DNA from: an uncultured virus (IMG/VR IMGVR_UViG_3300002066_000001)
Taxonomy: Duplodnaviria > Heunggongvirae > Uroviricota > Caudoviricetes
IMG/VR virus record: IMGVR_UViG_3300002066_000001
Length of the DNA: 64,000 nucleotides
Reading direction: 5' to 3' (one strand)
Position numbers and translations under genes: made by a program. Under the pieces are notes generated by a model, which was given only the letters and a program-made list of their open reading frames with translations, searched no databases and was not told where the DNA came from. Numbering within the stretch: the stretch's first letter is position 1; every line of letters starts with the position of its first letter. Shown in pieces: positions 24,181 to 64,000 of this stretch.

Positions 24181-24237
24181 TTTGTTTATTCCTACCATTT
24201 TGCTGACCTCAGCAATATGGTCATGAACACCACATAT

Positions 24238-24319: not shown

Positions 24320-24322
24320 CGT

Positions 24323-24402: not shown

Positions 24403-24476
24403 TCCCCTGTCGTCTAAAGGCAGGACAAGGGCCCTTGAAGCCCTGTATCTACGTCCGATTCGTAGTGGGGGAGCCA
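24403..24476 (+). tRNA. tRNA-Gln(TTG) with C33
   Basis: tcccctg/tggggga acceptor, agggc-CCTTGAA-gccct anticodon arm, GCCA end. Confidence 0.75.
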
Positions 24477-25237: not shown

Positions 25238-25774
25238 ATGAAAAAGACCTTCATTGAGAAGTTCGATGCTCAAGGGAAGGCCGTAGTCCTCGATTACGCC
25301 GCAAACCATAGTTCCCGGGAGACTGCTGCCTTCATTCAGAAGCAGTTTGGCGTCTCGGTCTCGTATGTGACCATTACCGCTATGATAAAGCGTCACTACG
25401 CCCAACTGCCAACGGAAGTCAAAATCATCAAGTATCAGTCGGCCAAAAACATCTTTGCGATACAGACGTATCTCATGGAAGTGTTCGAAGGCTATAAGGT
25501 AAAGGTTAAAGACATTTCACTGTCCGATGCCATCCGCGCACAGTACCAGATGGGCGCAGTCGAACTTGGACTCAAGATTGCCAAGATAGCAGCCGAGGTC
25601 ATCAAGACACCGCTCGCTGCAACGTCTTCATCCGAATCATCCACCGTACAGGAAGTCGACAGTATGGGGTGGGCGAAGACCCTTGACAGCACTCCTGATG
25701 AAATTGTCGAGGGTGAAGGCGTCGAGACAAACGAAAGCGTTGCCGAGGAAGAACCCTCCAAAGAAGAACACTGA
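25238..25774 (+). CDS. Probable terminase small subunit
   Basis: Immediately upstream of and coupled to terL; N-terminal HTH-like segment and acidic tail. The call is positional. Confidence 0.5.
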   Translation: MKKTFIEKFDAQGKAVVLDYAANHSSRETAAFIQKQFGVSVSYVTITAMIKRHYAQLPTEVKIIKYQSAKNIFAIQTYLMEVFEGYKVKVKDISLSDAIRAQYQMGAVELGLKIAKIAAEVIKTPLAATSSSESSTVQEVDSMGWAKTLDSTPDEIVEGEGVETNESVAEEEPSKEEH

Positions 25775-46709: not shown

Positions 46710-46717
46710 TCATGTCA

Positions 46718-46740
46718 GGGTGACGCGGTAGCGTCCACCC
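46718..46740 (+). promoter_or_regulatory. DGR target-recognition hairpin downstream of VR/IMH
   Basis: gggtg-acgc-GGTA-gcgt-c-caccc: GC-rich stem with a GRNA-type loop just after the target stop. Confidence 0.8.
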
Positions 46741-46761
46741 ATTTGTTCTAAAGGAGACCAT

Positions 46762-47157
46762 ATGGGGCGGCACTCAGAAGCGGAATTGAACAGGAAGTTT
46801 ATCGAGACGGCAAAACTGATGAACATCTATCTCAACCATTTTCCAAAATATGAAAAATATGCTCTCTGTCAGACGATTCGTTCTGCTATGTATGACGTGT
46901 ATGCCCTGATTGTCGAAACGCAGAAACGATATCATAAGAAGACGACACTGACTACACTGGACATACGGCATGAACAACTCCGCATGTTTGTGAATCTGGC
47001 CTACAGTCTGGACTATTTTCAATTCAAGGATGGAACGAAAGAAGGTGGTGAGCCACTGGCTGAACATAGATTTATGGCAATCAGTCGACTCATCGATGAA
47101 CTTGGCAGAATGATTGGTGGATGGATTGTACACGAGAATCAACGGGAAACGTCTTAA
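46762..47157 (+). CDS. avd: DGR accessory variability determinant
   Basis: LNHFPKYEKYALCQ.IR...KKTTL..LD..HEQLR...IDELGRMIGGW; lies between target and TR. Confidence 0.93.
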   Translation: MGRHSEAELNRKFIETAKLMNIYLNHFPKYEKYALCQTIRSAMYDVYALIVETQKRYHKKTTLTTLDIRHEQLRMFVNLAYSLDYFQFKDGTKEGGEPLAEHRFMAISRLIDELGRMIGGWIVHENQRETS

Positions 47158-47158
47158 A

Positions 47159-47272
47159 ATGTGTCCGATTTCAGGTGGCAATTGGAACAATGCTTCAAAC
47201 GCAGGTATATGGACACTCAATTTGAACAACAACCGAGCGAACTCGAACAACAACATCGGGTTTCGCTCCGAC
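47159..47272 (+). ncRNA. DGR template repeat (TR)
   Basis: AAC-rich copy of VR located between avd and RT. Confidence 0.97.
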
Positions 47273-47412
47273 TCTGCTTCTCCTCGCATCGAACAATCGA
47301 ATGGTGGAACAAAGGGAGGCGTTTTCCGGCAGGTTCTGTTGACTGCGAAATCGGTTTATCACTCCATTTCTGGTAGGGCTGGCAACAGTCTCGAACGTCA
47401 AGGAGTGAACTT

Positions 47413-48408
47413 TTGAAGCGTGTTGGCTATCTCTTCGAACAAGCGTTTACCAGGGACAATCTCTATCAGGCATATCTCGATGCCAGCAAGCACAAACACG
47501 GGAATCAAGCCTGTTTCAAGTTCGAGCGACGGTTGAGTTACAATCTGGACAGTCTCTATGATGAACTGCAGAGCGGAACCTATAAACCACGACCGTACCT
47601 TACGTTTACCGTTTATGAACCGAAGGAACGCAAGATTTACGCTCCGGCGTTTCGCGACTTGGTTGTGCAACATGCCATCTACCGGGTTATCCGTCTAATC
47701 TTTGACCGGGCGTTCATAGACCAGTCATATGCCTGTCGAAAAGGAAAAGGAACTCATGCCTGTGCAAACTACGCACAGACAGCATTGACAGCATCACCAG
47801 TCGACAGTTATACCCTCAAGTTGGACATCCGCAAGTTTTTCTACCGGATTAACAGGAATGTGCTGCGACAACTCATTGAACGCAAAATCAAGGATAGACG
47901 TTTTATCGACGTCATGATGTTGTTTGCTGATTATGGCCAACCAATCGGGATTCCTATCGGAAACCTACTTTCTCAGGTCTATGCCCTAATTTATCTGAAT
48001 CCGCTTGACCACTTCATCAAACGAGAGTTAAAAGCGAAACGTTATTGCCGATATGTTGATGACTTTATTCTCTTCGGAATCACCAGAAAGCAGGCAGATG
48101 AATATCTCGCTCGCATCATTGCCTTCATCAAGACGCTCAGCCTCGAGCTGTCACGCTATACCATTGCTCTCATTAAGCGAGGCGTCAATTTTGTCGGCTA
48201 CCGTACCTGGACGGACAAACGTTTCGTCCGCAAACGCAGCCTGTTTGTCTTCTCGCGGGCACTGCGAGATGGAAGGATACAAAGCGCCATCTCGATTCTC
48301 GGTCACGCCAGAAGGACACACAGCGTACGATACCTCGTCAGAACAATGAAGGAGAAATACCATGATTTACAGTTACCAAAAGCATATCGACAGTTCGCGA
48401 ACGGTTGA
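47413..48408 (+). CDS. DGR reverse transcriptase
   Basis: EPKERKIYAPAFRDLVVQHA, LKLDIRKFF, GIPIGNLLSQ, RYVDDFIL, NFVGY; TTG start after AAGGAG. Confidence 0.96.
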   Translation: MKRVGYLFEQAFTRDNLYQAYLDASKHKHGNQACFKFERRLSYNLDSLYDELQSGTYKPRPYLTFTVYEPKERKIYAPAFRDLVVQHAIYRVIRLIFDRAFIDQSYACRKGKGTHACANYAQTALTASPVDSYTLKLDIRKFFYRINRNVLRQLIERKIKDRRFIDVMMLFADYGQPIGIPIGNLLSQVYALIYLNPLDHFIKRELKAKRYCRYVDDFILFGITRKQADEYLARIIAFIKTLSLELSRYTIALIKRGVNFVGYRTWTDKRFVRKRSLFVFSRALRDGRIQSAISILGHARRTHSVRYLVRTMKEKYHDLQLPKAYRQFANG

Positions 48409-51119: not shown

Positions 51120-51779
51120 ATGAGTGATGTACAAGACGAAACACCTAGTTCATGGACGGTGGACACCTTACGAGTGTTCCTGTCTGCCAAAATATCCGAC
51201 TTGCACGACATGCTCCAAGAACGATATGAACAACAAACGAAGGCTGTTGACGCCGCATTTTCATCTCAGCAGATTGCTATGCAAGTGGCAAAAACTGAAC
51301 AGGCTACTGCCATGCAAACGGCCTTGGCCGTCCAGAAGGAAGCCGTCAATACGGCTATGGCTGCAGCGGATAAGGCTACCGCCAAAGCTGAGATTTCTTC
51401 TGACAAACGGTTTGAAGCTGTTAATGAGTTTCGAGCACAGTTAGGAGACCAAGCTGCGACCTTTGCGACTCGTAATGACCTAGAATTACGCATCAATGCT
51501 GTAAACGAGAAACTAGGGTACGAATCACAACGCTTTCAGGACTCTGGCGTCGCTCGGGACAAACAGATTAGCGATATGAACGCCGCTCAGGACAAAGCGA
51601 TGAGCGATATGAATTTGCGTCTGACGACTCAATTAGCCGGAAGAGCCGGACAAGATATCGGTTCTGCTGATTCGCGCACTAACAAGCGGCTTGACACATC
51701 ACAGATAATCTCTTTTATCAGTCTTTTCCTAGTTTTTGTGTCGATTGCCATAACGCTTATTACCGTGTTTTCAAAGTAG
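51120..51779 (+). CDS. Coiled-coil protein with a C-terminal transmembrane helix (lysis region)
   Basis: AA.KA..KAE....KRFEAVNEFR..L.D motif; hydrophobic C-terminus. Confidence 0.7.
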   Translation: MSDVQDETPSSWTVDTLRVFLSAKISDLHDMLQERYEQQTKAVDAAFSSQQIAMQVAKTEQATAMQTALAVQKEAVNTAMAAADKATAKAEISSDKRFEAVNEFRAQLGDQAATFATRNDLELRINAVNEKLGYESQRFQDSGVARDKQISDMNAAQDKAMSDMNLRLTTQLAGRAGQDIGSADSRTNKRLDTSQIISFISLFLVFVSIAITLITVFSK

Positions 51780-51811
51780 GTTGATGGCTCTATGAGCCAA
51801 AGGAGTAACAC

Positions 51812-52480
51812 ATGGAAACGTTTGTGAATGGTGTGGAAGTTACGGAAAAAGTCAAGTCACTTCAGATTGAGACATGGGTGGCGAAGGACGGCAAGGTCGT
51901 CAAGGTCAATGAGTCCGCGCATCTCGGGATACAGCCGATGAAGCAGTCTACCGCTAACCCCAAGGTCTATGAGTGCGTTGGTGCATATGGCAGACCTGCG
52001 TCCAAGATTCCAGTCACGTTCACGCTCGAGTCGCTTGGCACGGTGGCTCCGAAGACACAGGTTGTCGCAGGAATGCACGAAGCCAATACAATCATTCCCG
52101 CTTTGTCGTTTCTTGACGAGCCAGAGAAACTTGCTGCGTTGAGTGAGGCAGAGAAGCGGCAGCTCGAGAGCATTGGTATCGTGGACTTGAAGAAACTTTT
52201 TGAGGGTTGGACGCCCACAGTCCACACGGCGATTCAGGACGCAGCAATCGCCATCTACCAGCATCCCAAAGCCTCTGCCTACATTTCGGAACACAACACA
52301 GCAACAACGACCGGCGACCATGCTGACGGAGCCAAGGCAACACTGGCAGTTGGCACTCACATGTTCACGGTCGGCGACAAGTATTTCCATTCTGTTGGAT
52401 ACAGCTTCTGCGAGGGGAAGGACAAGTATTCCTTCACTTGGATGAACGTTCCTCTGAGCTTCTTAGACGAACCCAAGTAG
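51812..52480 (+). CDS. Hypothetical protein
   Basis: AAAGGAG RBS; 222 aa. Confidence 0.65.
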   Translation: METFVNGVEVTEKVKSLQIETWVAKDGKVVKVNESAHLGIQPMKQSTANPKVYECVGAYGRPASKIPVTFTLESLGTVAPKTQVVAGMHEANTIIPALSFLDEPEKLAALSEAEKRQLESIGIVDLKKLFEGWTPTVHTAIQDAAIAIYQHPKASAYISEHNTATTTGDHADGAKATLAVGTHMFTVGDKYFHSVGYSFCEGKDKYSFTWMNVPLSFLDEPK

Positions 52481-52529
52481 GGATAAACGGGTTGGCAGGG
52501 GGTCGAAAGGCCCCCTCTTTGGAGGATAA

Positions 52530-53249
52530 ATGAACATCACTAAACGTCTAAGCCCCAATAAGTACAAAGGTCGCTCGGGCTGGAAACCCGACTGTATCGT
52601 CTGCCACATCACGGAGGGCGCATACATGGGGGCCGTAAGCTGGTTATCCAACCCGGTCTCGGAAGCGTCGGCTCACTTTGTGGTAGCCAAAGATGGCCGA
52701 ATCACACAATTGGTAGAGTTGACTGATGGTTCATGGTGTAACGGAACCAGTTCAGACCCGGCTAGCAGGATATACTTCGGCAAATCTACCCTCTCAGCGG
52801 TTAGAGATAGAAAGACCAACGCTAACTACTACACCATATCCATTGAACATGAGGGCATATGGGCCGACGCGCATGGTAAACTAGCGGACGCGCAGTTGGC
52901 GGCGACTATCGAACTTATCAGATATATCCGGGCAGAGGTCAAGAGAATCTATGGGGTGGACATTCCACTCGACAGGGAACACATCGTCGGGCACTACCAA
53001 ATCTCTCCGGTAAACAAACCAAACTGCCCGGGCTCTGCTTTTCAGTTCGACGAAATTATCAAGCAACTAAGAATCCCGGAGGTAGTCGTGAGCGACTATG
53101 AAGTAGAAAGGACGCAGGACTGGGCCCGCCTGAAGAAGGTTGGTATTCTCAGTTCAGCGATACCGGACACGACGGCTGTGCCAAAGGACGAGTTGGCGGT
53201 TATCCTGTGCCGTTTTGCTGACGCCTTGGCAAAGGGAGTAAAGATATAA
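52530..53249 (+). CDS. Endolysin, N-acetylmuramoyl-L-alanine amidase (Amidase_2)
   Basis: IVCHITEG, ASAHFVV, TISIEHEG, IVGHYQI..NK.NCPG motifs. Confidence 0.92.
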   Translation: MNITKRLSPNKYKGRSGWKPDCIVCHITEGAYMGAVSWLSNPVSEASAHFVVAKDGRITQLVELTDGSWCNGTSSDPASRIYFGKSTLSAVRDRKTNANYYTISIEHEGIWADAHGKLADAQLAATIELIRYIRAEVKRIYGVDIPLDREHIVGHYQISPVNKPNCPGSAFQFDEIIKQLRIPEVVVSDYEVERTQDWARLKKVGILSSAIPDTTAVPKDELAVILCRFADALAKGVKI

Positions 53250-53665
53250 TGGCAATGGATTGGACTCAGGTATCAATAGCGATTATCACTCTTATCGGCA
53301 CCATCATCGTCACGTTAGTTCCCGTGATGGTTACAGCATTTGTCAATATGAACACGGCAAAGCTCGAACAATTGAAGGTACTGGCTGACAACAATCAGGA
53401 CATTGCCAATGGGATTGTGGCAGTAGTCCAAAATAGGTATAAGGCGTTTACAAGCAGTGAGAAATATCAGGCTGCTTTCGATAAATTGAACGCACAACTT
53501 CATCTCCCTACTGGTCAGTTGCAGCAACTCATTGAGCAAGCAGTTTCAATTTTGACACTCACGTGGGGTGAGGAATGGGCAAAACTTGGGGAAACGACTC
53601 CGGCCCCGGAGGGCGAAGAAACAGTTCTGACTCCAGTGTTCGAACAAGAGACCGCACAGATATAG
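53249..53665 (+). CDS. Holin-like protein (LL-H type)
   Basis: Single N-terminal TM helix, V.Q......EK...A...L....LIE.AV pattern; coupled to the endolysin. Confidence 0.65.
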   Translation: MAMDWTQVSIAIITLIGTIIVTLVPVMVTAFVNMNTAKLEQLKVLADNNQDIANGIVAVVQNRYKAFTSSEKYQAAFDKLNAQLHLPTGQLQQLIEQAVSILTLTWGEEWAKLGETTPAPEGEETVLTPVFEQETAQI

Positions 53666-53677
53666 TCACTACAACAC

Positions 53678-53708
53678 AAAAAAGCCCCGCCGAAAAGCGG
53701 GGCTTTTT
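53678..53708 (+). terminator. Rho-independent terminator, potentially bidirectional
   Basis: aaaaaagccccgc-cgaaaa-gcggggcttttt. Confidence 0.9.
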
Positions 53709-53719
53709 CATTTCTACTC

Positions 53720-53747
53720 TTGACACATTATGCAATTACTCTATACT
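53720..53747 (+). promoter_or_regulatory. Sigma70-like promoter for parA
   Basis: TTGACA-16 nt-TATACT, 32 nt upstream of the parA ATG. Confidence 0.7.
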
Positions 53748-53779
53748 CCCATTATGACATTCTGACATAGGGGGATTGC

Positions 53780-54517
53780 ATGAAGGTCATTGCTATAGCG
53801 AACCAGAAGGGCGGTGTAGGCAAGACGACCATCACGTTTCACCTCGCGCAATACCTCGCAGCGCAGGAGAAGAATACCCTTTGCATAGACATCGACCCGC
53901 AGGCAAACCTGACGAGTTGCCTCGTCGACGAACTCGCGGATGCCAACAATGTGAAACTGCTCTTTGAAGAAGGACATCCACAACCGTTACTCGTCGCGGA
54001 CTATCTGTCCGTCATTGGAAGTAACCTTTCGCTCAGTAGATATGAGGCAGACACGAAGTACGATAATTTCTCGTTGCTGAAGGGTCTCATGAAGACACTC
54101 AGGAAATCGGGAGAGTTCGAATATGTCCTCATCGACACACCGCCGTCACTGGCGCTCTTTACGACGAACGCACTACTTGCAGCAGAATATATCCTCGTCC
54201 CGGCAGACGCATCCAAGTTCTCCGTCGACGGACTACGTGACCTCTTCCACACGGTCGACCGTATCCGGGAAAAACAGGATACAGAGACCCCGAAAATCCT
54301 CGGTATCGCCTTGGCTGACGTCCAAGAACGTCTACTGCTTACGCAACAAATCCGTGAGCAACTCGAGAGAGACTACGACGGTACTCTGTTCAGGACGTCT
54401 ATTCCATCTTCGGTCAGAGTGCGCGAAGCCATATACAATCGAGAACCTGTTGATTCGGGTAAGGCAAAAGAAGCCTTCCTGTCATTATTCAAGGAGATTG
54501 AGGGGAGATTAGAGTGA
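53780..54517 (+). CDS. parA: ParA/Soj family partition ATPase
   Basis: ANQKGGVGKTT, IDIDPQANL, IDTPPSL. Confidence 0.95.
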   Translation: MKVIAIANQKGGVGKTTITFHLAQYLAAQEKNTLCIDIDPQANLTSCLVDELADANNVKLLFEEGHPQPLLVADYLSVIGSNLSLSRYEADTKYDNFSLLKGLMKTLRKSGEFEYVLIDTPPSLALFTTNALLAAEYILVPADASKFSVDGLRDLFHTVDRIREKQDTETPKILGIALADVQERLLLTQQIREQLERDYDGTLFRTSIPSSVRVREAIYNREPVDSGKAKEAFLSLFKEIEGRLE

Positions 54518-54750
54518 AACAACAAAAAGGGTCGGGGGATTTCCTCGACAACATGGATACGGCAAAAGACAAGAAGGAGCGTTTTACATCCTACCTTCCC
54601 AAGAAACTGACATACAAACTTCGGGTCTATGCCGCCTACAACCGAGAAGATTGTTCAGGCATCATGCAGCGGGCGCTCGAGAGAGAAATGTCCGACTTTG
54701 AGATACCTGAACGGGCGAAACCGTTTGCGCCAAAAGATGACATGAAGTAA
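54514..54750 (+). CDS. Small putative ribbon-helix-helix partition partner (ParG-like)
   Basis: Coupled to parA; RFTSYLPKKL..KLR.YA......S.I...AL fits an RHH pattern. Confidence 0.6.
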   Translation: MKQQKGSGDFLDNMDTAKDKKERFTSYLPKKLTYKLRVYAAYNREDCSGIMQRALEREMSDFEIPERAKPFAPKDDMK

Positions 54751-54753
54751 GGA

Positions 54754-55989
54754 CTACTTGTTGTGGCGGGCGACAGCCTTCGATATGTACTGTGGTTTTA
54801 ACTTGAATGCCCGGGCTATATCGGCTTGCCGGATGTTTCCGTTCTTGAGCAGTTCCATGATAATGTTGTCTCGCATGACGCGCACCTCCTTGCTTGCTCG
54901 CGTCTGCTGCAGCTCCTGCATCGGAACGATGACGTTCATCTTCTCCATGAGTCTCGAGATGAGTTGTTCAGAGGTCGATGGGGTAGTGACTTTCAGGTTG
55001 TGCAAGATTGCCCGCGCCTTGTCCAGCGTCATTGGTTGCCCGTCCAGTGTCATTGCATTTGCTACGGCATTGGCAACAGAGAGGATGCTGCGGATACTCG
55101 TGATGTTTACTTCCGCAAGGTAATCGAACGCTTCGGGCTGCAGGAGAATCCTTCTCTGAGCAAACTGGCTCTCGAGGATGTCCCGCAGGAGATTCTTGTC
55201 AGGCGGCTCTATCTTCGCCGTCATTCCAGTAATAAGGCGGGACGAGACCTCGGGGATAAGGTTGAAGCGTTCATCCGTTGGAAGTTCCTCTCCTGTGAAC
55301 AGACCCATCTTGCCGGAACTGATGAGATGGTCGAGAATGCCCTTCAACTCCTCCTGAACGCGCGGCATCCTTCGCAGAAACGACATGTCGTCGATGGCGA
55401 GGACATTGACGTCTCGGAACAAGTGCATCTGTTCGATGTACTCTTCCCCACCTTTGTGCATCCCCTTGAGGACATAGTCGGCAAACTCCGAAGAGTTAAA
55501 GAAGGCAATATGCTTTCCTCTCTCGAGCAGGGCGTGCAGGGCCGAATGGAGCAGGTGGGTCTTGCCGGAACCGATACTTCCGTAGATGTACAGGAAATTG
55601 GCGCTAGTGCTCTGGTATGGCTTCGCCGACACCATGTTCATCGCCGCAGTCAGCGCAGATTTGTTGCTCTGTCCGGCTATAAACGTGTCGAAGGTATAGG
55701 CGTAGTTGAGTTGCGCGGTTCCCTGAAGAGCCCCTTTCTGTTCGGCGGCTGCCGCAACGCTTGGAAAGGTATAACTGCGGACAATCTCTAGGGTGAAGGC
55801 TTTTCCTTTCTTCTCCTGAGCCGCCCGCAGCAACGGTTCCTTGAAGATGAGTTCAAGGTAAGATGCTTCTGCTGCATTCCCGCAGAACGCCGTAATCTTC
55901 TTACCCTCAAGGTGAAAGTCACAGTCGCGGAGCACTTTCTTGGAAACCATCATCTCGTCGGTATTAGGTACAAGCTCGTCAATCTTCAT
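54754..55989 (-). CDS. dnaA: DnaA-like AAA+ replication initiator with a divergent C-terminal HTH
   Basis: YTFDTFI.G.SN..A, LYIYGSIGSGKTHLLH, LAIDDM.FL...QEEL, SRL..G....IEPPD; C-terminal RQADIARAFKLKPQYISK. Confidence 0.85.
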   Translation of the reverse strand: MKIDELVPNTDEMMVSKKVLRDCDFHLEGKKITAFCGNAAEASYLELIFKEPLLRAAQEKKGKAFTLEIVRSYTFPSVAAAAEQKGALQGTAQLNYAYTFDTFIAGQSNKSALTAAMNMVSAKPYQSTSANFLYIYGSIGSGKTHLLHSALHALLERGKHIAFFNSSEFADYVLKGMHKGGEEYIEQMHLFRDVNVLAIDDMSFLRRMPRVQEELKGILDHLISSGKMGLFTGEELPTDERFNLIPEVSSRLITGMTAKIEPPDKNLLRDILESQFAQRRILLQPEAFDYLAEVNITSIRSILSVANAVANAMTLDGQPMTLDKARAILHNLKVTTPSTSEQLISRLMEKMNVIVPMQELQQTRASKEVRVMRDNIIMELLKNGNIRQADIARAFKLKPQYISKAVARHNK

Positions 55990-56385
55990 GGCTTCTCCCC
56001 CTTACTTCTGATGGTGGAAGTGTATCACCTTTTTGGATTCCTGTCTACTCACCTTGGAAAGAAGTATCTAAGCCACGCGCGGAGTTCTTTGCTACACTGG
56101 TCGCTCAGAATGTTGCCAAAACGAATGTTGCCAATCTCTCTGTCCCCTTGTCTCCTTTTTCTCTTCCTACTATGAGTAAGAAAAAACTTACTTAATCATC
56201 ATCGACTTAATAAGGCGGTTGGTAGTGTGGAGAAGTGGATGGATTGTCGTTGGAAATTGAGAGTGCGCTGTGAATAGCTTTGTCCCCTTTTTATTGCTTT
56301 GGGGACAGAAGGCGACACTCTCTTCGGGATTTCGGAAGTACATTGGGAAAGGAGACAGCAAGGGAGACAGAGTTACCAACATATG

Positions 56386-56410
56386 AAAAAAGCCCCTCTC
56401 GCGAGGGGCT
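56386..56410 (-). terminator. Rho-independent terminator
   Basis: Reads agcccctc-gcga-gaggggct-tttt on the minus strand. Confidence 0.8.
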
Positions 56411-57149
56411 CGTGTATTTCTAGATGTCCAGTTCAGCTCGGAGTAACCGTATCATGAGCTCAATGTTATTGAGTTCTGCACTAATCTTGCGGTCGCCCCA
56501 CTTGTCGTTGCTCGCCTTTTTAGAAACCTTGAGGGCGTAGTCCGAGATAGCGTCGAGCTTTTTGAGTTGTTCTGCGGTCAAAGTTTTGTCTGGCATGTCT
56601 TCTCCTGTTTGACGAATAGGTGTCTTGTGTTGCAGTCTGCAAGTCTCGGGATGCTGTACTTGTACCGGAGTCTTGTGACGCCGAGTGCAGTACAGGTGTG
56701 GGTCGGCTCACAGTCATGCTTTCCAAATCCCTGAATCCCCGCATGAAAGACGGAGTTGGCGCACTCCATGCAGTTCGAACTACTCATGTTGTCCTCCAAG
56801 TATCTTGTCGCGTTCCTGACGAGCACCTTCAGCCTTCGCAAAATCGTAGAGTTCAACTCCCTTGACACGGATGTACCACTGTAGTCGCCAGTGGTTTGCG
56901 ACATAAACGTCCCAACACGTTTCACAGAGACTCATCGGTTCGCCGCGTCCGGCATAAGAGGGATGTTTCCTGCACGAAAGTTTCGTTTCGGAAGGAGTCA
57001 TCTACTTGGATTTACGTACTCATCCAGAATAGCTTCGACAAAATGGTCGACCCATTCTGTAGCGCGTTCTACTGCCTCTTCGTAAGGACAACCAAACCCT
57101 TCGGTCGCTAGTTCGATAATGCCCTTTCGCATCTTCTCGAGTTTCTCCG

Positions 57150-57620
57150 TCATGTCGCTTCTTCCGGCAGTGCTCCCATTGTCTCATCGACAAGACGAAG
57201 TGCCTGCAGCGCGTACCCGGCGATGTCTCGCCATACTTCCTTGCGGGCTTTCTTAGACTCCTTGGTCTGTTCGTACTTTGACCATTGCATCGACATTAAC
57301 CCGGCTGTCTCGAGTTCGTTGCTCATACGAGCGAGTTTGTCATAGAGACGGACAACGATGCCTATCTCTCCCCACGTCATCAGGTTGGTATCGCCGTACT
57401 CTTTGTTCCTTCCCGAGAGGGCACTACGGACGTGTTCCCGGTACACTCTGTCGAGGTCTTGTTCAAACGGGGTCGATTCGACGATAAGTTCCTTGTTTTC
57501 CACGGTTAGCCCTCCTTGAAGTAGCTCTATTTTCTCGCTGCAACGTGCTGCAGCTTGATGGTGCATAGTAATGTCAAAAGACGTGTCCCAGTTAGTCTTT
57601 TCTGTTGAAATCGTCGCCAC
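57150..57620 (-). CDS. DUF1599 / nucleotide-modification-associated domain-like protein
   Basis: NKEYGD.N....G..GI.VRL.DKLAR...W.DIAGYA motif; the start codon is uncertain. Confidence 0.7.
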   Translation of the reverse strand: MATISTEKTNWDTSFDITMHHQAAARCSEKIELLQGGLTVENKELIVESTPFEQDLDRVYREHVRSALSGRNKEYGDTNLMTWGEIGIVVRLYDKLARMSNELETAGLMSMQWSKYEQTKESKKARKEVWRDIAGYALQALRLVDETMGALPEEAT

Positions 57621-57629
57621 GGGGTTCTA

Positions 57630-58960
57630 ATCGAACCATTTCCATTTTGGAAATAGCTCATGGGCCTCTTGGTCACATTTTAGGGGCCCAAGTCGTGACC
57701 AAGTTGGGACTAAGTTGCATTTGGGTGTCGAATACTATACATTTCTGTATTGTTTCCGACATTGGAATGCAAAAGTCCGTTCCCAATTGTTACGTTTTTT
57801 GTTAATAATCCGAAATGGGTTTGTCCGGTCTGTCCGAAGGTGTCCCGAGGTGTCGGGAGGTGTTCGAAGGTGTCGGGAGGTGTCTGACACTTTTACGGCC
57901 CAAAAAGTGTGGGGTAGGTACACTTTTCCGGTAGTAACGCCAACCGTCCGGAAATCCCGGACACTTCCCTCCCATTTCGCCCATGTGGACAAAATGGCGA
58001 TGTTTTGCTGACGTCAGCAAAATCGTCAGGTGGTGACGGTTTGACTCCGACTGCACAAACCTTAAAATAATTTTAAGGTTGGCAACTGATAAGGATTTCT
58101 TAAGGGTTCATGGCGCGTTTGGCGGGTTTATGGCGGCTTCAAACCGTGACTATCCGTCACGCCTTCGTTTTTCAGAAATATCCGTTGTGGCGGTCAACTG
58201 GCTACAATCTGTAGTCGGTTGACAGAAAGTTGCCAAACACGCACACATAGTTGCCAAAAGTGTGCGAGAAAGTCATGTACATTCAACGGACATGTATTGT
58301 GAACGTGTCCAAAGAACGGCAAACTTTGGACATATGTGCATTCGAGTTGCTGCAGAATATGCACATACTGGAAGCAATGTGCAGTAAATGCACGAAAGGT
58401 ATAATTGTTCAACCGAGATGTATACGAAAGTCCGTATCTTTCTCAAAACAATAATAAGAATCCCGCTATTATTGAAAAAGGGCATTATCCGATAATAGCG
58501 ACCCCGCAAGTACCCCGCAACCTTAACTTGGTTAAGGGGTTGTGCAGCAGCCTGCTGCACTTTATGCTAGTAGCATAATTCCACTAGAATAATTCTGCCT
58601 TATGCCAAATGATTGTGCCAAACGCTTAAATAAGAGAACCGCATGGATACTCGGTATGATGGCAAGTCTGCTCCAGTTTTGTGTAAGAACTTTAATAAAA
58701 CCGGAGCAGAACCACTCCACTCAGAGTCAACTGGAGTGAAAATGTAGCAGCGAATTCGTTTCCGGCTGGTCAATCGTCCCATTTAATCAGCGGTTCGTCC
58801 ATTCCGCGATTGTACGGCGCTTATGCTGAACCGGAAATTGCTGGCTGTTGCGCTCCGGAAGTCCCATTTAATCTCTCTAATGGAGAGAACCAGCAGTAAA
58901 GAAATTGTTTACAACTCAAACACTATTCCTCAAGGGGAACTTCAACCCCTTATTCACGGC
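57630..58960. repeat. Dense non-coding array of diverse palindromes and 10-11-bp-phased direct repeats
   Basis: Examples: ttttgctgacgtcagcaaaa 58003-58022, aaccttaaaataattttaaggtt 58058-58080, gtgcagcagcctgctgcac 58542-58560, ttatgctagtagcataa 58562-58578, and a 10-mer tandem at 57831-57890. Confidence 0.85.
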
Positions 58961-60253
58961 CATTCGCCCCGCTTGGCTTACTGCACCGCGTCCTGTATCT
59001 TTAGAAGAGGGGAATAGGAGGTCAAGGCTAGCGGGCCTCGTTGCCTTATCTGGCCGACATTCATTTGCCCTAGCAACCCGGTGCGGGGTTCACTTGTCGT
59101 TTAATCGGGAGCGCGTTTCCTGCGACCCGAACCATTCGGTCAAACCTTATTGTTCCTGACTGATTTTCGGTCATTTAATACACGACACAACACTTGATAA
59201 TAAGATTTGGCAGAGGCTTGAAGCATTTTTTCGGGGGCATTAGGGCCAAGTGCCGACCGGAGAACGGTGACGATACGCTTGATTTGCGCATCGCACCCGG
59301 TCTTGCTGGCATACTGTCGCACCGTTAGTCCAGAGCCTTGTAGCATTACCGCTACACCCGAAGCCGACATTCGTTGTGCCTTATCGTGCATCATCCATGA
59401 ACCCATCTACAACAGCATCAATTTTTCCCTTAATAACCAAAATATCCGCAATAATTCCGTTCAACTTAAAGATTTCATCGTCAAGAAGGTCTTCATATTC
59501 AACAAGACTATCGCACAATTTTTCAGTTTTAGACATTTTCTTCATTACGCATTACCCCCTTCTTCTGTTGTAGAGACCCTGCACGGTGCCCACAGGGTCG
59601 GGAGCCCATCCCGCCTTGCGCGGGGTAAGGAACCACCTCGGTTCTTTTCTGCACCTTCGCCGAGGGCAAGGAATATATGGCGGACAGCCGCACTCGTTGT
59701 CGCTTTAATCGCTGTAAGGGGTACTTGCGCCCCTCTCCTGCGAACCATCCCGGCTGAGTACCTACGGTATCGTCTACTCATTTAATCCATGAACGAGGCG
59801 ACAGAGGGAAGTCATTGGAACCGGGGGTAAAGGATTTGCTTACAACTGCTTTTCTATTGGAAGACCTCTTCCCCCTATCCCGGGAGACGGAACATTCTCG
59901 ACGGAATACCGCTTCAAAGCTGCGAGAGGAATGTAGGTCGTTCTATTTGGACTAGCTGCTTCACGGAAGTACAGGTCATTGTCGTTCGTGCGCCAGTCGA
60001 TAACGTTGTTAGCAACATAGTCACTCATGTCGGTATAAACGGCTTCAATTACTGTTCTCATGGTTCTCCTTTGCCGCGATTGCGGCTATCCTTTGCCAAC
60101 GGTTTCCTAAGATAATGAACTGCATCCAGCGCCAGAACCAATGGGGCGGTTCGGCAACACTCCACACAATTCCCATTTTGTCACCGCCGAACAACCGGCA
60201 TTCCCATGTTGGTTTGGGCGGGACTGCATCAATTACATGAACAGTAAATCCAT

Positions 60254-60508
60254 TCATGGCTTCACCTCGGAGGCAAGGGCGGAGGCGGGAACAACAATGC
60301 ACCCATTCCGACCGTGCATGTCACAATGAATCTGCCCCTTCAGCAGGTCTGCTTTCTCCTGCTCTGCCCCCTCTGCACGGCCCTGAGCGAGACAGGCTTC
60401 CTTGAACGCAGCAATCTCAGCCCCGAATGCTCTATGCCCGGGGAAATAATGGTCAGCGACTGCATGGATAAGAGTGGTCTCGGCTGTATTAACCTTGCTA
60501 TATGCCAT
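60254..60508 (-). CDS. Hypothetical protein of the modular RAEGAEQE / SxLAxEVKP family
   Basis: ACLAQGRAEGAEQEK...VPASALASEVKP. Confidence 0.65.
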   Translation of the reverse strand: MAYSKVNTAETTLIHAVADHYFPGHRAFGAEIAAFKEACLAQGRAEGAEQEKADLLKGQIHCDMHGRNGCIVVPASALASEVKP

Positions 60509-60864
60509 TGTCGGCCTCCCCAGTAACGCGAGCAAGAATATAGTTTCCGCCCCTTTCTAGTCCCCACCGTAAATACTGTCGCGCAACCATTTCCGACTCC
60601 CATATAGTCCCTCCGAACTTTGCAACGGGGGCTCCTTCCAAATCCACGACAATCCATCCCTCGTAGGGAATGGGGATGAGGTCGAGAGGATGTTCATCAG
60701 AATAGCCGTTGTATTTTCCATCGGCCTGCCATCTGTTCTTGTAAACCACTCGGAAACGTAATAATGCCGACGATGGGAAAGTCCTCATTCTTAACATTGT
60801 CGCGGAGAATCTCTACGATATCGCCCTCTCTTGTCAGATACTTTCCCTTCATCGTCACTATCAT
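60498..60864 (-). pseudogene. Frameshifted conserved phage gene
   Basis: The N-terminus MIVTMKGKYLTREG...DFPIVGII and the C-terminus WQADGKY...EHPLDLI lie in different frames, with the switch near 60733-60745. Confidence 0.55.
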
Positions 60865-61205
60865 GGCTTCTCCTTCGGCGCGAGGACAAAAGTGGGGTCA
60901 TTGAACGCAGAAAGGGGGATAATCAATGACATCTGATGAAGAAAGTCATCAACTGGCATTGCAAGCGTTCGTATCCTTTCCCTCTCCTGCTCTTCCCCCT
61001 CTGTCTTTCCTGCCGCAAAAGCGGTATCATGGTCATCAATAAGTTTGTTGAATGCGTCGGAGTTTCTCTTCTCTAATTCCTCTGCCCCCTCTGCACGACC
61101 TTGCTCAAGAGACGCATTCATAAGGCGAGTTGCATCTTCGCATTGTTCTGACGTGAAAGTCCACCTACCAATAAGACACATCGCCTCATCAACCTTGCTC
61201 AACAT
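60861..61205 (-). CDS. Hypothetical protein of the modular family
   Basis: QGRAEGAEE...EGEEQERERIR...FVLAPKEKP. Confidence 0.65.
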   Translation of the reverse strand: MLSKVDEAMCLIGRWTFTSEQCEDATRLMNASLEQGRAEGAEELEKRNSDAFNKLIDDHDTAFAAGKTEGEEQERERIRTLAMPVDDFLHQMSLIIPLSAFNDPTFVLAPKEKP

Positions 61206-61853
61206 TCTCTGCCTCCTTTGCTACACCCTAATGACGGAACTGAACAGACTTTCACTCTTTTTGATAGGACGGTCTTCCACTTTGAGAATCACGTTTTTTC
61301 CTCGCCGTTTCTTTTCCTTCTTCGCCCACGGAAGTCTGTCGTCACTCTCGTCGGGAGCATCGAAAGATTTGTCGGTCATCTGAATAAGTTCCGGAGAGAA
61401 GTAGTGAATCGACATCCCCTTTTCCGAATCGTCTCTGCAGATGACACCCCACTTGTCGTTGCGCCACATACCCCATAGCAAACCTTCTCCATCGGGGGAG
61501 TCGACAAGGTGATACCGGAACATCAGGTAGTAGTCGATAGTTGCCGGGTTATCCGGGTCAAAATTGGCTCCGGCTGCCACGATTTCTGGACGTTCATTGA
61601 GATAAACTCCTTTGGCCTCATAGAACTTCACCTCACACTCTCCGTAGTTTCTCAACAGCCCAGTATTCCCAGTGGTTCGAGAAGGTTTCTATAAGGTCAC
61701 AGACGACGAAGTCTCCGATGTTCAATTCGTCGTGCAGTGTCTTGGTCGCTCCACAAAAGTCAGGGTGCCTTGTACTGTCGATGCAAATCCAGAACCCATA
61801 TTCACAGCCGGGGTGCAGACCTGAGTGGCTCTTCTCGAGGATGAGTCCAGCTA

Positions 61854-62060
61854 TCATGAGTTCTCCTTTTTGAATGACAGCCAATAGGAAGACAGTTCAG
61901 TGTTGGGTGTTTCCTTGAGGTCTTCTATTAGTTCTCTCAGAGAATCCCAGTAATCATCCACAGCGTCTTCTCTCGTTTTGCCAGTCCCGTGAACCGGAGG
62001 GTTCTCCGTGGTGGCAAGCCAATACTCCTTGTCCCACACAACCTTGATGTCATCGCTCAC
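61854..62060 (-). CDS. HicB-like small protein
   Basis: YWLA......VHGTGKTREDAV....D pattern of the HicB N-terminal fold; no HicA seen nearby. Confidence 0.5.
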   Translation of the reverse strand: MSDDIKVVWDKEYWLATTENPPVHGTGKTREDAVDDYWDSLRELIEDLKETPNTELSSYWLSFKKENS

Positions 62061-62341
62061 GGCAGTACCGCGATTGCACACGGGCCATTGTACCCTTCTG
62101 TGATTCGTACACGAGAACCTAACGAGACCTTATGGAACAGGATAGAGTCTGTCCACACTGTCCACAGAGAACCATCCACCCTGACGACAAGGTGGTACTC
62201 GGCTCCGCCGTAGTAGGGGTTCATGTTCATGCTGACTACTGTGCCTTCATAGACAGAAGGTAGATGTTGTTCTGGCAGGTCACAACCACTTGCTATCCCG
62301 AGTACGAAGCAGATGATGAGAAGACATACGATGCGTTTCAT
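62057..62341 (-). CDS. Putative lipoprotein
   Basis: MKR-hydrophobic-IASGC signal and lipobox. Confidence 0.55.
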   Translation of the reverse strand: MKRIVCLLIICFVLGIASGCDLPEQHLPSVYEGTVVSMNMNPYYGGAEYHLVVRVDGSLWTVWTDSILFHKVSLGSRVRITEGYNGPCAIAVLP

Positions 62342-62747
62342 GCTGCTCCTTCCATCATTTTCAGGACGACCTCTCCATAGGCGTCGACAGGATTGACTGC
62401 CGAGAACTTGAAGACTATGTTGTCAGAACCGAACGCCCGCACGATGAAACGTGGTTCGTACTTTCCCTTCTCACCTTCAAAGGTTCGCCAATCGACCTCG
62501 ACGGTCATTGCCCTGTTCGAGAAGATAGGACTGGTCATCATCCACATCTGCAGCGTGTCGAGACGATAGGCCGCGTACTCTCTTGCTGTAGGAAGGAAGA
62601 TGTCCTCGATACCCAAGTGAATACTTCCGTCTGGATACTCAACCCATGAAGCGTCATAACGATACTTAAATCCTGCCTCGTAGAGCCTCAGCGAAACGTC
62701 GAATGATGTTATTGGTCTGAGCCGTTCGATAGAAAGTTCTGCGGCTG

Positions 62748-63104
62748 TCATGGCGTTCTCAAAACGACATTGGTGTAGCTCTTCTCGGAGGTTAGCTGGA
62801 TGTCATCAACATTGATAACCACAATACGCTTCTCCGGCTGGAAGTACCGCGCCATTCGCGCCTGTGCTACGTCCCACAATGAGCCCTCGGAAGCAGGATT
62901 CCACCACACATGAACTTCATCGGCCCACATGATGTCTTGTTCGTGTGCTTCAGTGATGGATAGACCATCTCCGCTTTGATTGGTGTCACGGAACGGGCAA
63001 CGTACTTGATACCCCCTTGTTTCTAGGGCAGCGACATACGACAGAATCCTTGTGCGTTCAACTTCCGTCAGATGACGGACAGGACAGACAATATAGACTC
63101 TCAT
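62748..63104 (-). CDS. Nucleoside 2-deoxyribosyltransferase-like protein
   Basis: RVYIVCPV...LE..GY.V..P.RD...ADEV..WW...SEGS.WD pattern. Confidence 0.55.
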   Translation of the reverse strand: MRVYIVCPVRHLTEVERTRILSYVAALETRGYQVRCPFRDTNQSGDGLSITEAHEQDIMWADEVHVWWNPASEGSLWDVAQARMARYFQPEKRIVVINVDDIQLTSEKSYTNVVLRTP

Positions 63105-63261
63105 GGTTGCCTCTTTCTGACTACGACGCCCTCTTCAAGATGGTTGATGATGATTGCCAGTCCGATTGCCACAACGAAGCCAACAACATAGATTGCTGTT
63201 GCAATAGGTTGACCCGCCGCGCCAAGGGAACATAACAAAAGCCAGATTGCTAACCACCACA

Positions 63262-63801
63262 TCACAACTCCTTTGGGTCGACGTATTTGAGTTGTTCAGC
63301 AAGTCCATGTCCTTCAACCTCAACAAACTTAACCTTCGGCGACTGACCATACAGTCCGAGATTGAAGGTGAGTCGACGCCATTGTGCGACTGCGTAGTAG
63401 TCTTTTGGCTTCAGACTGACGAACCAGTAGTCTATGAGGTCGAACAGTCCGGGCATGAAGGATTCCGTGAAGTTCGTGTAGATTGCCTTGTGCCACACTT
63501 CGGGGATGTCGTTCATGATGATGCCGACAAGTTCCTTCTGGTATAGCAACGGCTCCCCGCCGCCAAATGCGATGCCATTGTACGGGTGCTCGAGGATGTT
63601 CTTCAAGATAGACTGATACCGGGAGAAGGGGGATTCGTACTCAACCATCAGTTCTTTGTTGAAACAGAAGGGACATTCCAAGTTACAACCTTGGAAGAGC
63701 AGCGTCCCGGAGATACACCCGGGGACTTCTGCTGTCAAATCGACAAACGAGTGGACGCTAGTGTAACTCCTAGAACTTGACAAGTTGATGTGACTGGTCA
63801 T
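63262..63801 (-). CDS. Radical SAM protein, anaerobic RNR activase-like
   Basis: LFQGCNLECPFCFN (CxxxCxxC), FGGGEP, IYTN. Confidence 0.8.
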   Translation of the reverse strand: MTSHINLSSSRSYTSVHSFVDLTAEVPGCISGTLLFQGCNLECPFCFNKELMVEYESPFSRYQSILKNILEHPYNGIAFGGGEPLLYQKELVGIIMNDIPEVWHKAIYTNFTESFMPGLFDLIDYWFVSLKPKDYYAVAQWRRLTFNLGLYGQSPKVKFVEVEGHGLAEQLKYVDPKEL

Positions 63802-64000
63802 AGAATCCGATTTTCCTCATCGCAGAGACGGGAACCATCTGTTGTTTCCCATACCCAAGGTTGACCGAGTCGGCATTCTCCCAATCAGATTTCGTGCTCT
63901 CGTAGATGTCTCCGGTATCCGATTCTGTGATGCGAACGCGGCGCACGTCGTTCTCTCCGAACTTCTCGACAACGCTGCTCTGGATGCCATAAGCGTTAAA

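What the first reader, a model, noticed from the sequence alone, without database searches (positions are those of the whole stretch)
57630..58960. Candidate decoy or self-mimic catalogue: about 1.3 kb of back-to-back binding-site-like palindromes from several apparent families
Seen: the minus-strand operon is interrupted by a non-coding stretch in which a different inverted or phased repeat appears every few tens of bp. It is not one repeated unit, so it is neither CRISPR nor a simple iteron array. The sites fall into geometric classes: dyads around a 5-nt spacer, 26-bp even dyads, a 1-nt-spacer dyad, and 10-11-bp direct repeats. Recalled, not searched: when translated, several match the short variable segments encoded by palindromic DNA inside RhuM, DinD, BRO-N, YhcG/DUF1016 and Fic/AlbA-ATPase genes, families often found in defence islands. 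Inference: these proteins may recognise a site in their own gene, and the phage collects the sites without the genes, either to titrate the proteins or to pass as self. I know of no description of this system.
Basis: partly seen in the sequence, partly recalled or inferred. Interest (0 to 1): 0.9.

Follow-up and report, generated by a model that had tools for sequence, protein, structure and literature searches.

The report
Phage array of gene-less defence-gene palindromes
A phage carries, in a 1.5-kb gene-free stretch, copies of the short DNA palindromes that several bacterial restriction-associated gene families keep inside their own coding sequence, although it has none of those genes, which suggests that it engages or misleads the proteins that those genes encode.

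Summary
Window 57621-59139 has no convincing gene and no Rfam match. It holds about five times more palindromes than shuffled sequence, and the RNA fold z-score is -10.

Four dyads within 57634-58560 are near-identical to palindromes that sit at one fixed codon position in four gene families:
- RhuM
- a DinD-like Bro-N subfamily
- a second Bro-N subfamily
- YhcG/DUF1016

Exact 20-21-mers from these sites recur 8 to at least 120 times in bacterial and archaeal genomes, mostly inside those genes. None of the 128 window ORFs tested belongs to these families. A fifth copy lies among the tRNAs, at 24196.

The Fic/AlbA part of the recall found no support. Only 2 of 28 AlbA_2 genes had any strong palindrome, and Fic was not tested.

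The other dyads tested are private to this phage. One 60-nt block looks like iterons. A DnaA-like initiator gene and a ParA gene lie nearby.

Gene-less copies of a single type are common in phages. A multi-family cluster was seen in 0 of 73 other viral loci.

Function is untested. The choice between decoy, sensor or operator platform, and recombination scars stays open. No paper found describes these palindromes. Earlier notes of this scan reported the intragenic palindromes on other DNA.

The parts
57621..59139 (.). Gene-free, palindrome-dense stretch between two minus-strand genes.
   Evidence: ORF list. No Pfam hit to the named families in 52 frames. No homologue of the longest frame. No Rfam match. 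Palindrome excess over shuffles. RNA fold z = -10.
57634..57657 (-). RhuM-type palindrome without the gene. It reads I-S-K-M-E-M-V on the minus strand. Similarity to rhuM genes runs over 57625-57656. It lies 14-37 nt upstream of the GTG start of gene 57150-57620.
   Evidence: 29/32 identical to a rhuM fragment on a Bacteroides uniformis plasmid and 23/24 to an intact 340-aa rhuM in a faecal phage contig. The 20-mer that matches the window at 19 of 20 bases has >=120 exact genome hits. 43 of the 80 fetched hits passed a strict RhuM test and about 12 more are plainly RhuM. 13 of 13 rhuM genes from an Actinomycetota sample carry a palindrome at the same codons.
57670..57705 (.). Private dyad CTTGGTCAC-N18-GTGACCAAG.
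   Evidence: Read directly. The only outside similarity is 27/30 to an E. coli intergenic site upstream of a GntR-family regulator gene, at E 0.3, which may be chance.
57715..57772 (.). Long imperfect inverted repeat: 27-nt arms, 74% complementary, 4-nt spacer.
57831..57890 (+). Six 10-bp phased direct repeats (TGTCnnnAGG), iteron-like.
   Evidence: AGGTGTC occurs 4 times here, against 9 on the whole plus strand.
57887..57937 (.). Dyad ACACTTTT-N8-AAAAGTGT, plus a direct or inverted partner at 57920-57937.
57946..57962 (+). Possible second RhuM-type site (8-1-8 dyad). It reads T-V-R-K-S-R-T-L. Weak.
   Evidence: Dyad found. It has 5 substitutions against the 21-nt core of an actinobacterial rhuM allele and did not pass the fixed threshold.
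57980..58024 (-). DinD-like Bro-N-type palindrome. The core 58003-58022 is a perfect 20-mer. A short gene-like flank follows on the minus strand.
   Evidence: The exact 20-mer occurs in 25 other viral contigs. It lies inside Bro-N-domain genes in L014 and L025 and in L060. The window matches L059 at 26/28 nt, and a 14-codon peptide aligns at 71%.
58056..58082 (.). Private 13-1-13 dyad.
   Evidence: The exact 23-mer was found only in the phage's own contig among viral contigs.
58193..58223 (+). Palindrome of a second Bro-N subfamily. It reads G-Q-L-A-T-I-C-S-R-L. The arms are 14 nt with 2 mismatches.
   Evidence: 27/30 identical to a Bro-N gene lying between cas4 and cas1 on an Arcobacter cloacae plasmid. 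The window 20-mer, with one N, has 50 genome hits, 35 of them in ORFs with the subfamily's downstream signature. In viral contigs it was found only in the phage's own contig.
58306..58332 (.). Private 9-9-9 dyad.
   Evidence: The arms with any spacer were found only in the phage's own contig.
58464..58500 (.). Private dyad CGCTATTATTG-N15-CGATAATAGCG.
   Evidence: Found only in the phage's own contig.
58542..58560 (+). YhcG/DUF1016-type palindrome. It reads V-Q-Q-P-A-A-L.
   Evidence: The window 21-mer has 8 exact genome hits, and at least 5 lie at the family's fixed site in YhcG genes. 9 of 12 YhcG genes from a Bacillota sample have a palindrome at that site.
58562..58578 (.). 8-1-8 dyad directly after the YhcG-type site.
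   Evidence: No counterpart was sought.
58667..58738 (.). Long inverted repeat (21-nt arms, 81% complementary) followed by a further dyad.
   Evidence: A terminator-like site is called on the minus strand.
58872..58912 (.). Two small 8-1-8 dyads.
24196..24219 (.). A further DinD-type palindrome outside the array, between tRNA-Pro and tRNA-Gln. It has 2 substitutions from the perfect 24-mer.
57150..57620 (-). First gene downstream of the array: 156 aa, unknown function.
   Evidence: No Pfam hit. Weak match to phrog_1485, of unknown function.
54754..55989 (-). DnaA-like AAA+ protein, a candidate replication initiator or helicase loader.
   Evidence: Bac_DnaA ATPase domain, E 2.5e-25. phrog_50.
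53780..54750 (+). ParA-like ATPase gene followed by a 78-aa gene, a candidate partition pair.
   Evidence: AAA_31 and CbiA domains; phrog_164 at E 5.8e-54. The 78-aa product has no hit.

Best explanation
The stretch is non-coding DNA in which a phage keeps gene-less copies of conserved palindromes. Four host accessory-gene families carry these palindromes at a fixed place in their own reading frames: RhuM, two Bro-N/DinD subfamilies and YhcG/DUF1016. The copies sit among dyads private to the phage and an iteron-like block, just upstream of an operon that ends in a DnaA-like gene.

I think the family-type copies most likely work as binding sites for the DNA-binding heads of those proteins, either as double-stranded dyads or as extruded hairpins. 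The phage DNA would then engage them on entry. The outcome would be titration or misdirection (a decoy or self-mimic), or host-dependent control of the operon downstream (a sensor or operator).

Shown here: the sequence identity to the gene palindromes, the absence of those genes from the window, and the rarity of a multi-family cluster. Inferred: that the proteins bind these palindromes at all, and what the phage gains.
For: Four dyads of four families lie within 930 nt (57634-58560). With the same fixed-threshold scan there were 0 hits in 20 shuffles of the 64-kb window.

Each site's 20-21-mer recurs far above chance, mostly at one codon position of its family. Chance is about 0.3 to 4 hits per genome scan by my own arithmetic.
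- RhuM-type: >=120 genome hits.
- Second Bro-N subfamily: 50 genome hits, 35 in such genes.
- YhcG-type: 8 genome hits, at least 5 at the canonical site.
- DinD-type: 25 other viral contigs.

The arms co-vary while the symmetry is kept. This held in 13 of 13 rhuM genes and 9 of 12 yhcG genes. It points to a nucleic-acid-level function of the palindrome.

All four families have DNA-binding heads by Pfam. The palindrome lies inside the Bro-N domain and inside DUF1016_N.

None of the 128 window ORFs tested belongs to these families.

Phages often keep gene-less copies. 46 of 48 viral hits of the RhuM-type 20-mer lie outside rhuM genes. In one gut phage contig a copy precedes each of two small genes, as the window's copy precedes gene 57150-57620.

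These families sit inside type I restriction loci (PMC9881135, passages seen).
Against: No binding of any of these proteins to its palindrome was shown here or in any paper I could read.

The copies are partly degenerate. The RhuM-type has 2 substitutions, the second Bro-N type has 3, and the outer arms of the DinD-type are lost.

Two copies carry short gene-like flanks on one side. This fits descent from genes as well as it fits selection.

Most dyads of the stretch have no family counterpart.

No related phage was found, so conservation of the array could not be tested.

The host is unknown, so I could not check whether it carries matching alleles.
Confidence: 0.4

Rival explanations
1. Recombination scars or landing pads. 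The palindromes are recombination-prone joints at which rhuM, dinD/bro and yhcG cassettes are gained and lost. The array is what repeated insertions and deletions left behind, and it has no function of its own.
For: The copies carry short in-frame flanks of the source genes on one side. After the RhuM-type site the window reads V-R-L-E. After the DinD-type site it reads K-T-S-P-F-C-P-H-G, against K-T-S-P-M-P-H-G in a gene. Several copies are degenerate. The loop of the RhuM palindrome occurs in both orientations in genes, as expected of hairpin-mediated events. Earlier notes of this scan report deletions between YhcG palindrome copies; I did not check this.
Against: No other remnant of the genes is left: 0 of 52 frames hit the families, and tblastn found only the short pieces. 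Four families within 930 nt would need four precise double truncations. The YhcG-type and DinD-type cores are still perfect. Gene-less copies in other phages sit at regular places before genes.
Confidence: 0.2
2. The phage's own control region. The stretch is the replication origin, partition site and early operator or leader region. Phage proteins, or general host factors, bind there. The family-type palindromes are borrowed as ordinary cis elements (operators or 5' hairpins) unconnected to the host gene families.
For: An iteron-like block of six 10-bp repeats. A DnaA-like AAA+ gene and a ParA pair lie 1.6-3.8 kb away. Dyads private to this phage. The RhuM-type copy lies just before a start codon here and in another phage. 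The strong local folding would suit leader hairpins.
Against: It does not explain why four of the dyads copy the palindromes of four unrelated host gene families to within 0-3 bases. Only one near-consensus DnaA box was found. Promoter-like sites are not above the shuffle level: 4 found against 3.4 expected. No phage protein with a Bro-N, RhuM or DUF1016 head was found in the window.
Confidence: 0.25
3. One or several structured non-coding RNAs.
For: RNA fold z = -10. The stretch lies inside a minus-strand transcription unit.
Against: No Rfam family matched. The structure is a string of local palindromes that fold equally on either strand. No relatives were found, so covariation could not be tested. 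The family-type sites occur in both orientations.
Confidence: 0.05

Closest known systems
Conserved intragenic palindromes of rhuM, dinD/bro-N and yhcG genes
   Same: The window's four sites match these palindromes to within 0-3 bases, with the same geometry and centre.
   Different: Here the palindromes stand alone, without the genes. Four families are clustered in non-coding phage DNA. That was not seen in 73 other viral loci.
Pseudo-ToxI repeats of phage PhiTE (RNA mimic of an antitoxin; Blower et al. 2012, recalled, not read here)
   Same: A phage carries a non-coding copy of a nucleic-acid element that belongs to a host defence locus, without the protein gene.
   Different: PhiTE has tandem copies of one RNA unit with a shown escape phenotype. 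Here there are single copies of four different DNA palindromes, and no phenotype or binding has been shown.
Host-regulator sites in phage DNA, such as Spo0A boxes and parS sites in phi29-like phages
   Same: Non-coding phage DNA displays binding sites for host proteins.
   Different: Those are operators of known global regulators. The sites here copy sequences from inside accessory genes whose products have no shown binding site. One perfect TGTCGAA lies in the stretch, which is not an enrichment.
Roi of phage HK022, a Bro-N-type protein said to bind inside its own gene
   Same: It would be a precedent for a Bro-N-family protein recognising a site in its own coding sequence.
   Different: It is a single phage gene. 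No array, no gene-less copies and no multi-family cluster are involved.
Rickettsia palindromic elements (protein-coding palindromes; Ogata et al. 2000 and 2002, known to me only from the citing passage in PMC4316617)
   Same: Palindromic DNA that is read through as protein and also occurs in non-coding DNA.
   Different: RPEs are 100-150 nt selfish insertions at many unrelated sites in one genus. These are 19-30 nt, fixed at one homologous codon position per family, and spread across bacteria and archaea.
Iteron origins and plasmid or phage-plasmid centromeres (P1 oriR/incA, type Ib parC; recalled)
   Same: 10-bp phased direct repeats near an initiator-like gene and a ParA pair.
   Different: Only a 60-nt block fits. 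The many different dyads and the family-type copies are not features of those sites.

Membership tests
Gene-less copy of the RhuM intragenic palindrome | Near-identity to the palindrome found at the S/T-V/I-x-K-x-x-I/T-V/T codons of rhuM genes, with the dyad centred at the third base of the middle codon. | tested here: met
   Window 57634-57657 has 2 substitutions from the commonest allele. It matches rhuM DNA at 29/32 and 23/24. 13 of 13 rhuM genes have the palindrome at that place. The 20-mer has >=120 exact genome hits.
Gene-less copy of the DinD-like Bro-N palindrome | The even palindrome that reads H-F-A-D-V-S-K-M inside the Bro-N domain. | tested here: met
   The exact 20-mer of the window occurs in Bro-N genes L014 and L025 (Pfam E 1e-12 and 1.3e-10) and in L060.
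Gene-less copy of the second Bro-N subfamily palindrome | The 13-1-13 palindrome that reads Q-L-A-T-N/I-C-S-Q-L, followed in genes by D-G-K and Q-S-I-P-S. | tested here: met
   The window 20-mer, with one N, has 50 genome hits, 35 in ORFs with that signature. It matches an annotated Bro-N gene at 27/30. The window copy has 3 substitutions.
Gene-less copy of the YhcG/DUF1016 palindrome | The palindrome just before the P-W-G/F-H-N motif of DUF1016_N. | tested here: met
   The window 21-mer is exact in 8 genome contigs, and at least 5 of these lie at that site in YhcG genes. 9 of 12 YhcG genes have a palindrome there.
   AlbA_2 (PF04326): 2 of 28 genes had any palindrome of score >=11, and at different places. 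Fic was not tested. The earlier notes hold nothing on it.
DNA decoy or titration array | The cognate proteins bind the sites, and the sites relieve a defence. | not testable with these tools
   This needs EMSA or DAP-seq and plating assays.
CRISPR array | One repeat unit recurring at regular spacing. | tested here: not met
   The dyads all differ. The only regular repeats are six 10-bp units.
Iteron-type replication origin | Phased direct repeats beside an initiator gene, an AT-rich unwinding region and DnaA boxes. | tested here: inconclusive
   Six 10-bp repeats. The DnaA-like gene ends 1.6 kb away. One DnaA box with one mismatch. G+C drops only to 0.42-0.45.
Known structured RNA (Rfam) | A match to a covariance model. 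| tested here: not met
   No match in the stretch at E<=1.
Decayed rhuM, bro or yhcG genes (pseudogenes) | Residual protein-level similarity along the gene. | tested here: not met
   0 of 52 frames hit these families. tblastn with six family proteins found only pieces of 11-14 residues at the palindromes.

The most novel reading that the evidence does not exclude
RhuM, DinD/Bro-N and YhcG proteins, the common guests of type I restriction loci, each recognise the palindrome written into their own gene as a mark of self. This phage carries a multi-family set of those marks in early-transcribed, gene-free DNA. The set would soak up or blind several of these proteins at once, making it a DNA-level, multi-target anti-defence decoy.
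Probability: 0.2. Interest if true: 0.95.

Novelty: categorically new. Interest (0 to 1): 0.8.

Why it matters
RhuM, DinD-like Bro-N and YhcG/DUF1016 genes are among the commonest uncharacterised genes in restriction and defence loci. This finding links them in two ways. Each carries a co-varying DNA palindrome at a fixed codon position. And phages carry the same palindromes without the genes, here four families side by side.

That gives a direct handle on what these proteins recognise. It also gives a concrete test: bind the proteins to the sites, delete the array, and plate on hosts with and without the genes.

If the array is a decoy, it would be a new kind of anti-defence that works by DNA mimicry of a host self-mark. 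If it is a set of scars, it shows that these palindromes are the joints at which such genes move. Either result would explain a widespread sequence feature that no paper I found describes.

Tried and rejected
**Related phages.** Protein-guided searches with the 156-aa neighbour and the DnaA-like protein found only the identical IMG/VR contig and distant hits of 27-38% identity. Those distant hits have no comparable array. This covered viral, genome and metagenome contigs. The nearest held virus record lacks the stretch.

**blastn of the stretch.** At E<=1e-5 against phages it found nothing. At E<=10 it gave the leads that I followed.

**BLAST against 401 Bacillota genomes.** 40 hit places were fetched. 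Apart from the RhuM- and DinD-type sites, they were chance matches inside ordinary genes.

**The E. coli hit for 57673-57702.** It is an intergenic site upstream of a GntR-family regulator gene at E 0.3. I treated it as possibly chance.

**Two 'ATP-binding protein' genes beside the plasmid rhuM and bro genes.** They have no relevant palindrome.

**AlbA_2 genes.** No conserved palindrome.

**G-T against A-C mismatch asymmetry, to tell RNA from DNA pairing.** There were too few distinct sites (3 and 7), so it was uninformative.

**Spo0A-box reading of the 10-bp repeats.** One perfect TGTCGAA lies in the stretch, which is not an enrichment.

**Three private dyads.** Scanned in viral contigs, they occur only in the phage's own contig.

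**Literature.** Eight searches and passages of three papers found no description of these palindromes. The Roi paper could not be read.
Full report
**Setting**

The window is a tailed phage.
- Structural and lysis genes: large terminase at 25774-27060, a Mu-like portal at 27054-28469, and tail and lysis genes on the plus strand up to 53665.
- Other features: a tRNA cluster at 22030-24476 and a diversity-generating retroelement.
- Candidate replication and partition genes: a ParA-like gene at 53780-54517 with a 78-aa gene behind it, and a DnaA-like AAA+ gene at 54754-55989 on the minus strand.
- Small minus-strand genes of unknown function fill 56188-57620 and 59140-64000.

An IMG/VR contig is 100% identical over 51153-63620. 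No other close relative was found in viral, genome or metagenome contigs. The nearest held virus record lacks the stretch.

**The observation**

Positions 57621-59139 hold no convincing gene.
- The longest stop-free frame is 126 aa and has no homologue.
- 0 of 52 stop-to-stop frames of at least 20 aa hit any relevant Pfam family, even at E<=10.
- Rfam gave no match there.

Palindromes are enriched.
- In 57630-58960, 22 dyads have arms >=8 nt and spacer <=8. The mean of 200 dinucleotide shuffles is 4.2 and the maximum is 12. With arms >=9 nt there are 11, against a mean of 1.2.
- Palindrome coverage is 12.3% in the region and 1.9% in the whole window.
- As RNA, the minus strand of 57621-58600 folds with z = -10.0, and 0 of 20 shuffles folded as well.

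The dyads differ from one another. A 60-nt block of six 10-bp phased direct repeats lies at 57831-57890.

**What the dyads are**

A lenient blastn of the stretch against plasmids and phages gave only a handful of short hits, but they were telling.

1. *RhuM type.* Window 57625-57656 matches rhuM DNA.
   - It is 29/32 identical to a rhuM fragment on a Bacteroides uniformis plasmid, and 23/24 identical to an intact 340-aa rhuM in a faecal phage contig. The matching DNA there reads T-I-S-K-M-E-I-V.
   - In a sample of 301 Actinomycetota genomes, 13 of 13 rhuM genes inspected carry a 25-35-nt palindrome at the same codons. The arms differ between genes but stay complementary.
   - The 20-mer of the commonest allele matches the window at 19 of 20 bases. 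About one hit is expected by chance, by my arithmetic. The hits run from Clostridia to Bacteroidota, Helicobacter, Akkermansia and Methanobacterium.
   - Of the 80 hits fetched, 43 passed a strict RhuM test and about 12 more are plainly RhuM. The rest are rhuM genes with the loop flipped, or gene-less copies, for example just upstream of uvrB in Lachnospiraceae.

2. *DinD-like Bro-N type.* The perfect 20-mer at 58003-58022 occurs exactly in 25 other viral contigs with unrelated flanks.
   - In L014 and L025 it lies inside Bro-N domains, at Pfam E 1e-12 and 1.3e-10, and reads H-F-A-D-V-S-K-M. In L060 it lies in a homologous 292-aa gene.
   - Against L059 the window matches 26/28 nt. On the minus strand its reading continues for 14 codons that align with the gene product.

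3. *A second Bro-N subfamily.* Window 58193-58222 is 27/30 identical to an annotated Bro-N gene on an Arcobacter cloacae plasmid.
   - That gene lies between cas4 and cas1. It reads G-S-Q-L-A-T-I-C-S-Q-L where the window reads G-G-Q-L-A-T-I-C-S-R-L.
   - The window 20-mer, with one N, has 50 genome hits against about 4 expected by chance.
   - 35 of these lie in ORFs with the subfamily's downstream signature, and several more lie in broken copies. Archaea are among the hits.

4. *YhcG/DUF1016 type.* In a Bacillota sample, 9 of 12 YhcG genes have a palindrome just before the P-W-G-H-N motif.
   - The window 21-mer around 58542-58560 reads V-Q-Q-P-A-A-L. It is exact in 8 genome contigs against about 0.3 expected by chance. 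At least 5 of these lie at that site in YhcG genes, some of which carry in-frame tandem arrays of such palindromes.

**Specificity and controls**

I used one fixed scan for all of the following: seven family cores with 2-5 substitutions allowed.
- The window has hits of four families in 57634-58560 and one more DinD-type copy at 24196-24219, between two tRNA genes.
- 20 shuffles of the whole window gave 0 hits.
- Of 73 other viral loci that hold one such palindrome, 11 hold a second copy of the same family. None holds two families.

A weaker, possible second RhuM-type site lies at 57946-57962. It did not pass the fixed threshold.

Only 2 of 28 had any strong palindrome, at different places. 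Fic was not tested.

**What the stretch is not**

- It is not decayed genes. Protein-level searches found only pieces of 11-14 residues at the palindromes.
- It is not wholly a catalogue. Three other dyads that I scanned occur only in the phage's own contig. A BLAST of the stretch against 401 Bacillota genomes gave chance matches in ordinary genes, apart from the RhuM and DinD types. Only two candidates per genome were scored in that search.
- The hit of 57673-57702 in 892 of 5426 E. coli genomes is an intergenic site upstream of a GntR-family regulator gene at E 0.3. It may be chance.

**The phage lacks the genes**

None of the 128 ORF translations of the window is RhuM, Bro-N or DUF1016. The window may not be the whole genome.

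**Gene-less copies in other phages**

Of 48 viral contigs with the RhuM-type 20-mer, only 2 have it in a rhuM gene.
- By a simple ATG-ORF rule, 24 lie inside an ORF of at least 60 aa, 11 lie within 80 nt upstream of a start or overlap one, and 13 are otherwise intergenic.
- In one gut phage contig a copy precedes each of two small genes. The window's copy likewise lies 14-37 nt before the GTG start of gene 57150-57620.
- A contig group (L012, L016, L018, L021) has a DinD-type copy beside two to four dyads of another class, with variable arms around a GTGCAG centre, in about 300 nt of non-coding DNA. I could not place that class.

**How it most likely works**

Three things are shown: the sequence identity to the gene palindromes, the co-variation of arms within the families, and the absence of the genes from the window.

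The rest is inferred. Co-varying symmetry at a fixed codon position says the pairing matters at the nucleic-acid level. All four families have DNA-binding heads, so the simplest reading is that each protein recognises its own-gene palindrome. The phage copies would then engage those proteins, either as a decoy or self-mimic, or as host-dependent operators of the operon that leads to the DnaA-like gene. I put 0.4 on this binding-platform reading and cannot split it further.

The rivals are these.
- Recombination scars, 0.2. This is supported by the one-sided gene-like flanks, the partial degeneracy and the loop flips.
- The phage's own origin, partition and leader region that merely reuses the palindromes, 0.25. 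This is supported by the iteron-like block, the neighbouring genes and the private dyads.
- Structured RNA, 0.05.

An attempt to tell RNA pairing from DNA pairing by mismatch type had too few sites.

**Literature**

- PMC9881135 (passages seen) lists DUF1016 and RhuM proteins as enriched neighbours of programmed-inversion targets. It also shows DUF1016, dinD/RhuM and Fic/DOC genes between type I restriction genes. It mentions no palindrome or hairpin.
- Searches combining RhuM, DinD, Bro-N, YhcG or DUF1016 with palindrome, inverted repeat or hairpin found no description of these elements. I judged this from listings and from the passages of PMC4316617, which concern Rickettsia palindromic elements.
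- The paper on Roi of HK022 is not held.

**Earlier notes of this scan**

Earlier notes had already reported the intragenic palindromes of rhuM, dinD and yhcG on other DNA. I re-tested that here on fresh samples. They had also reported operator-like arrays in other phages. None reports a multi-family gene-less array.

**Verdict**

The decoy idea is open but testable. Novelty is high, both for the element class and for its clustered, gene-less form in a phage.

Noticed in passing
window 45234-48408: A diversity-generating retroelement. It comprises a 491-aa target gene whose 3' end (46582-46695) is 82% identical to a template repeat at 47160-47273, a bAvd-like gene at 46762-47157, and a reverse transcriptase gene at 47413-48408.
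   Followed up: partly
window 23341-23691 (+): An endonuclease VII (junction- and cruciform-cutting) gene inside the tRNA cluster, about 500 nt from the extra DinD-type palindrome at 24196. This is of interest in a phage so rich in palindromes.
   Followed up: no
window 116-192, 732-765, 925-960, 60253-60397, 60860-61115: Families of 28-55-nt direct repeats recur at the ends and starts of small minus-strand genes near both ends of the window. They may mark paralogous small genes or repeated regulatory boxes.
   Followed up: no
L016 2990-3280 (also L012, L018, L021): Another phage group has a DinD-type palindrome followed by dyads with variable 10-11-nt arms around a constant GTGCAG/CTGCAC centre, in about 300 nt of non-coding DNA: four in L016 and two in each of the other three loci. 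I could not assign this class.
   Followed up: partly
L073, L111, L120 (Lachnospiraceae genome contigs): A gene-less RhuM-type palindrome sits just upstream of the uvrB start codon in three Lachnospiraceae genomes.
   Followed up: no
L244, L250 (genome contigs): Some YhcG genes carry several in-frame tandem palindromes of different alleles before the P-W-G-H-N motif.
   Followed up: no
L333 and about 15 similar viral loci: In a recurrent group of gut phage contigs, the ATG inside the RhuM-type palindrome could be the start codon of a roughly 200-aa gene with no Pfam hit.
   Followed up: partly
window 6250-6795, 10777-11724, 63262-63801: An HNH endonuclease gene, an RNA ligase gene and a radical-SAM gene lie in the minus-strand early blocks.
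   Followed up: no
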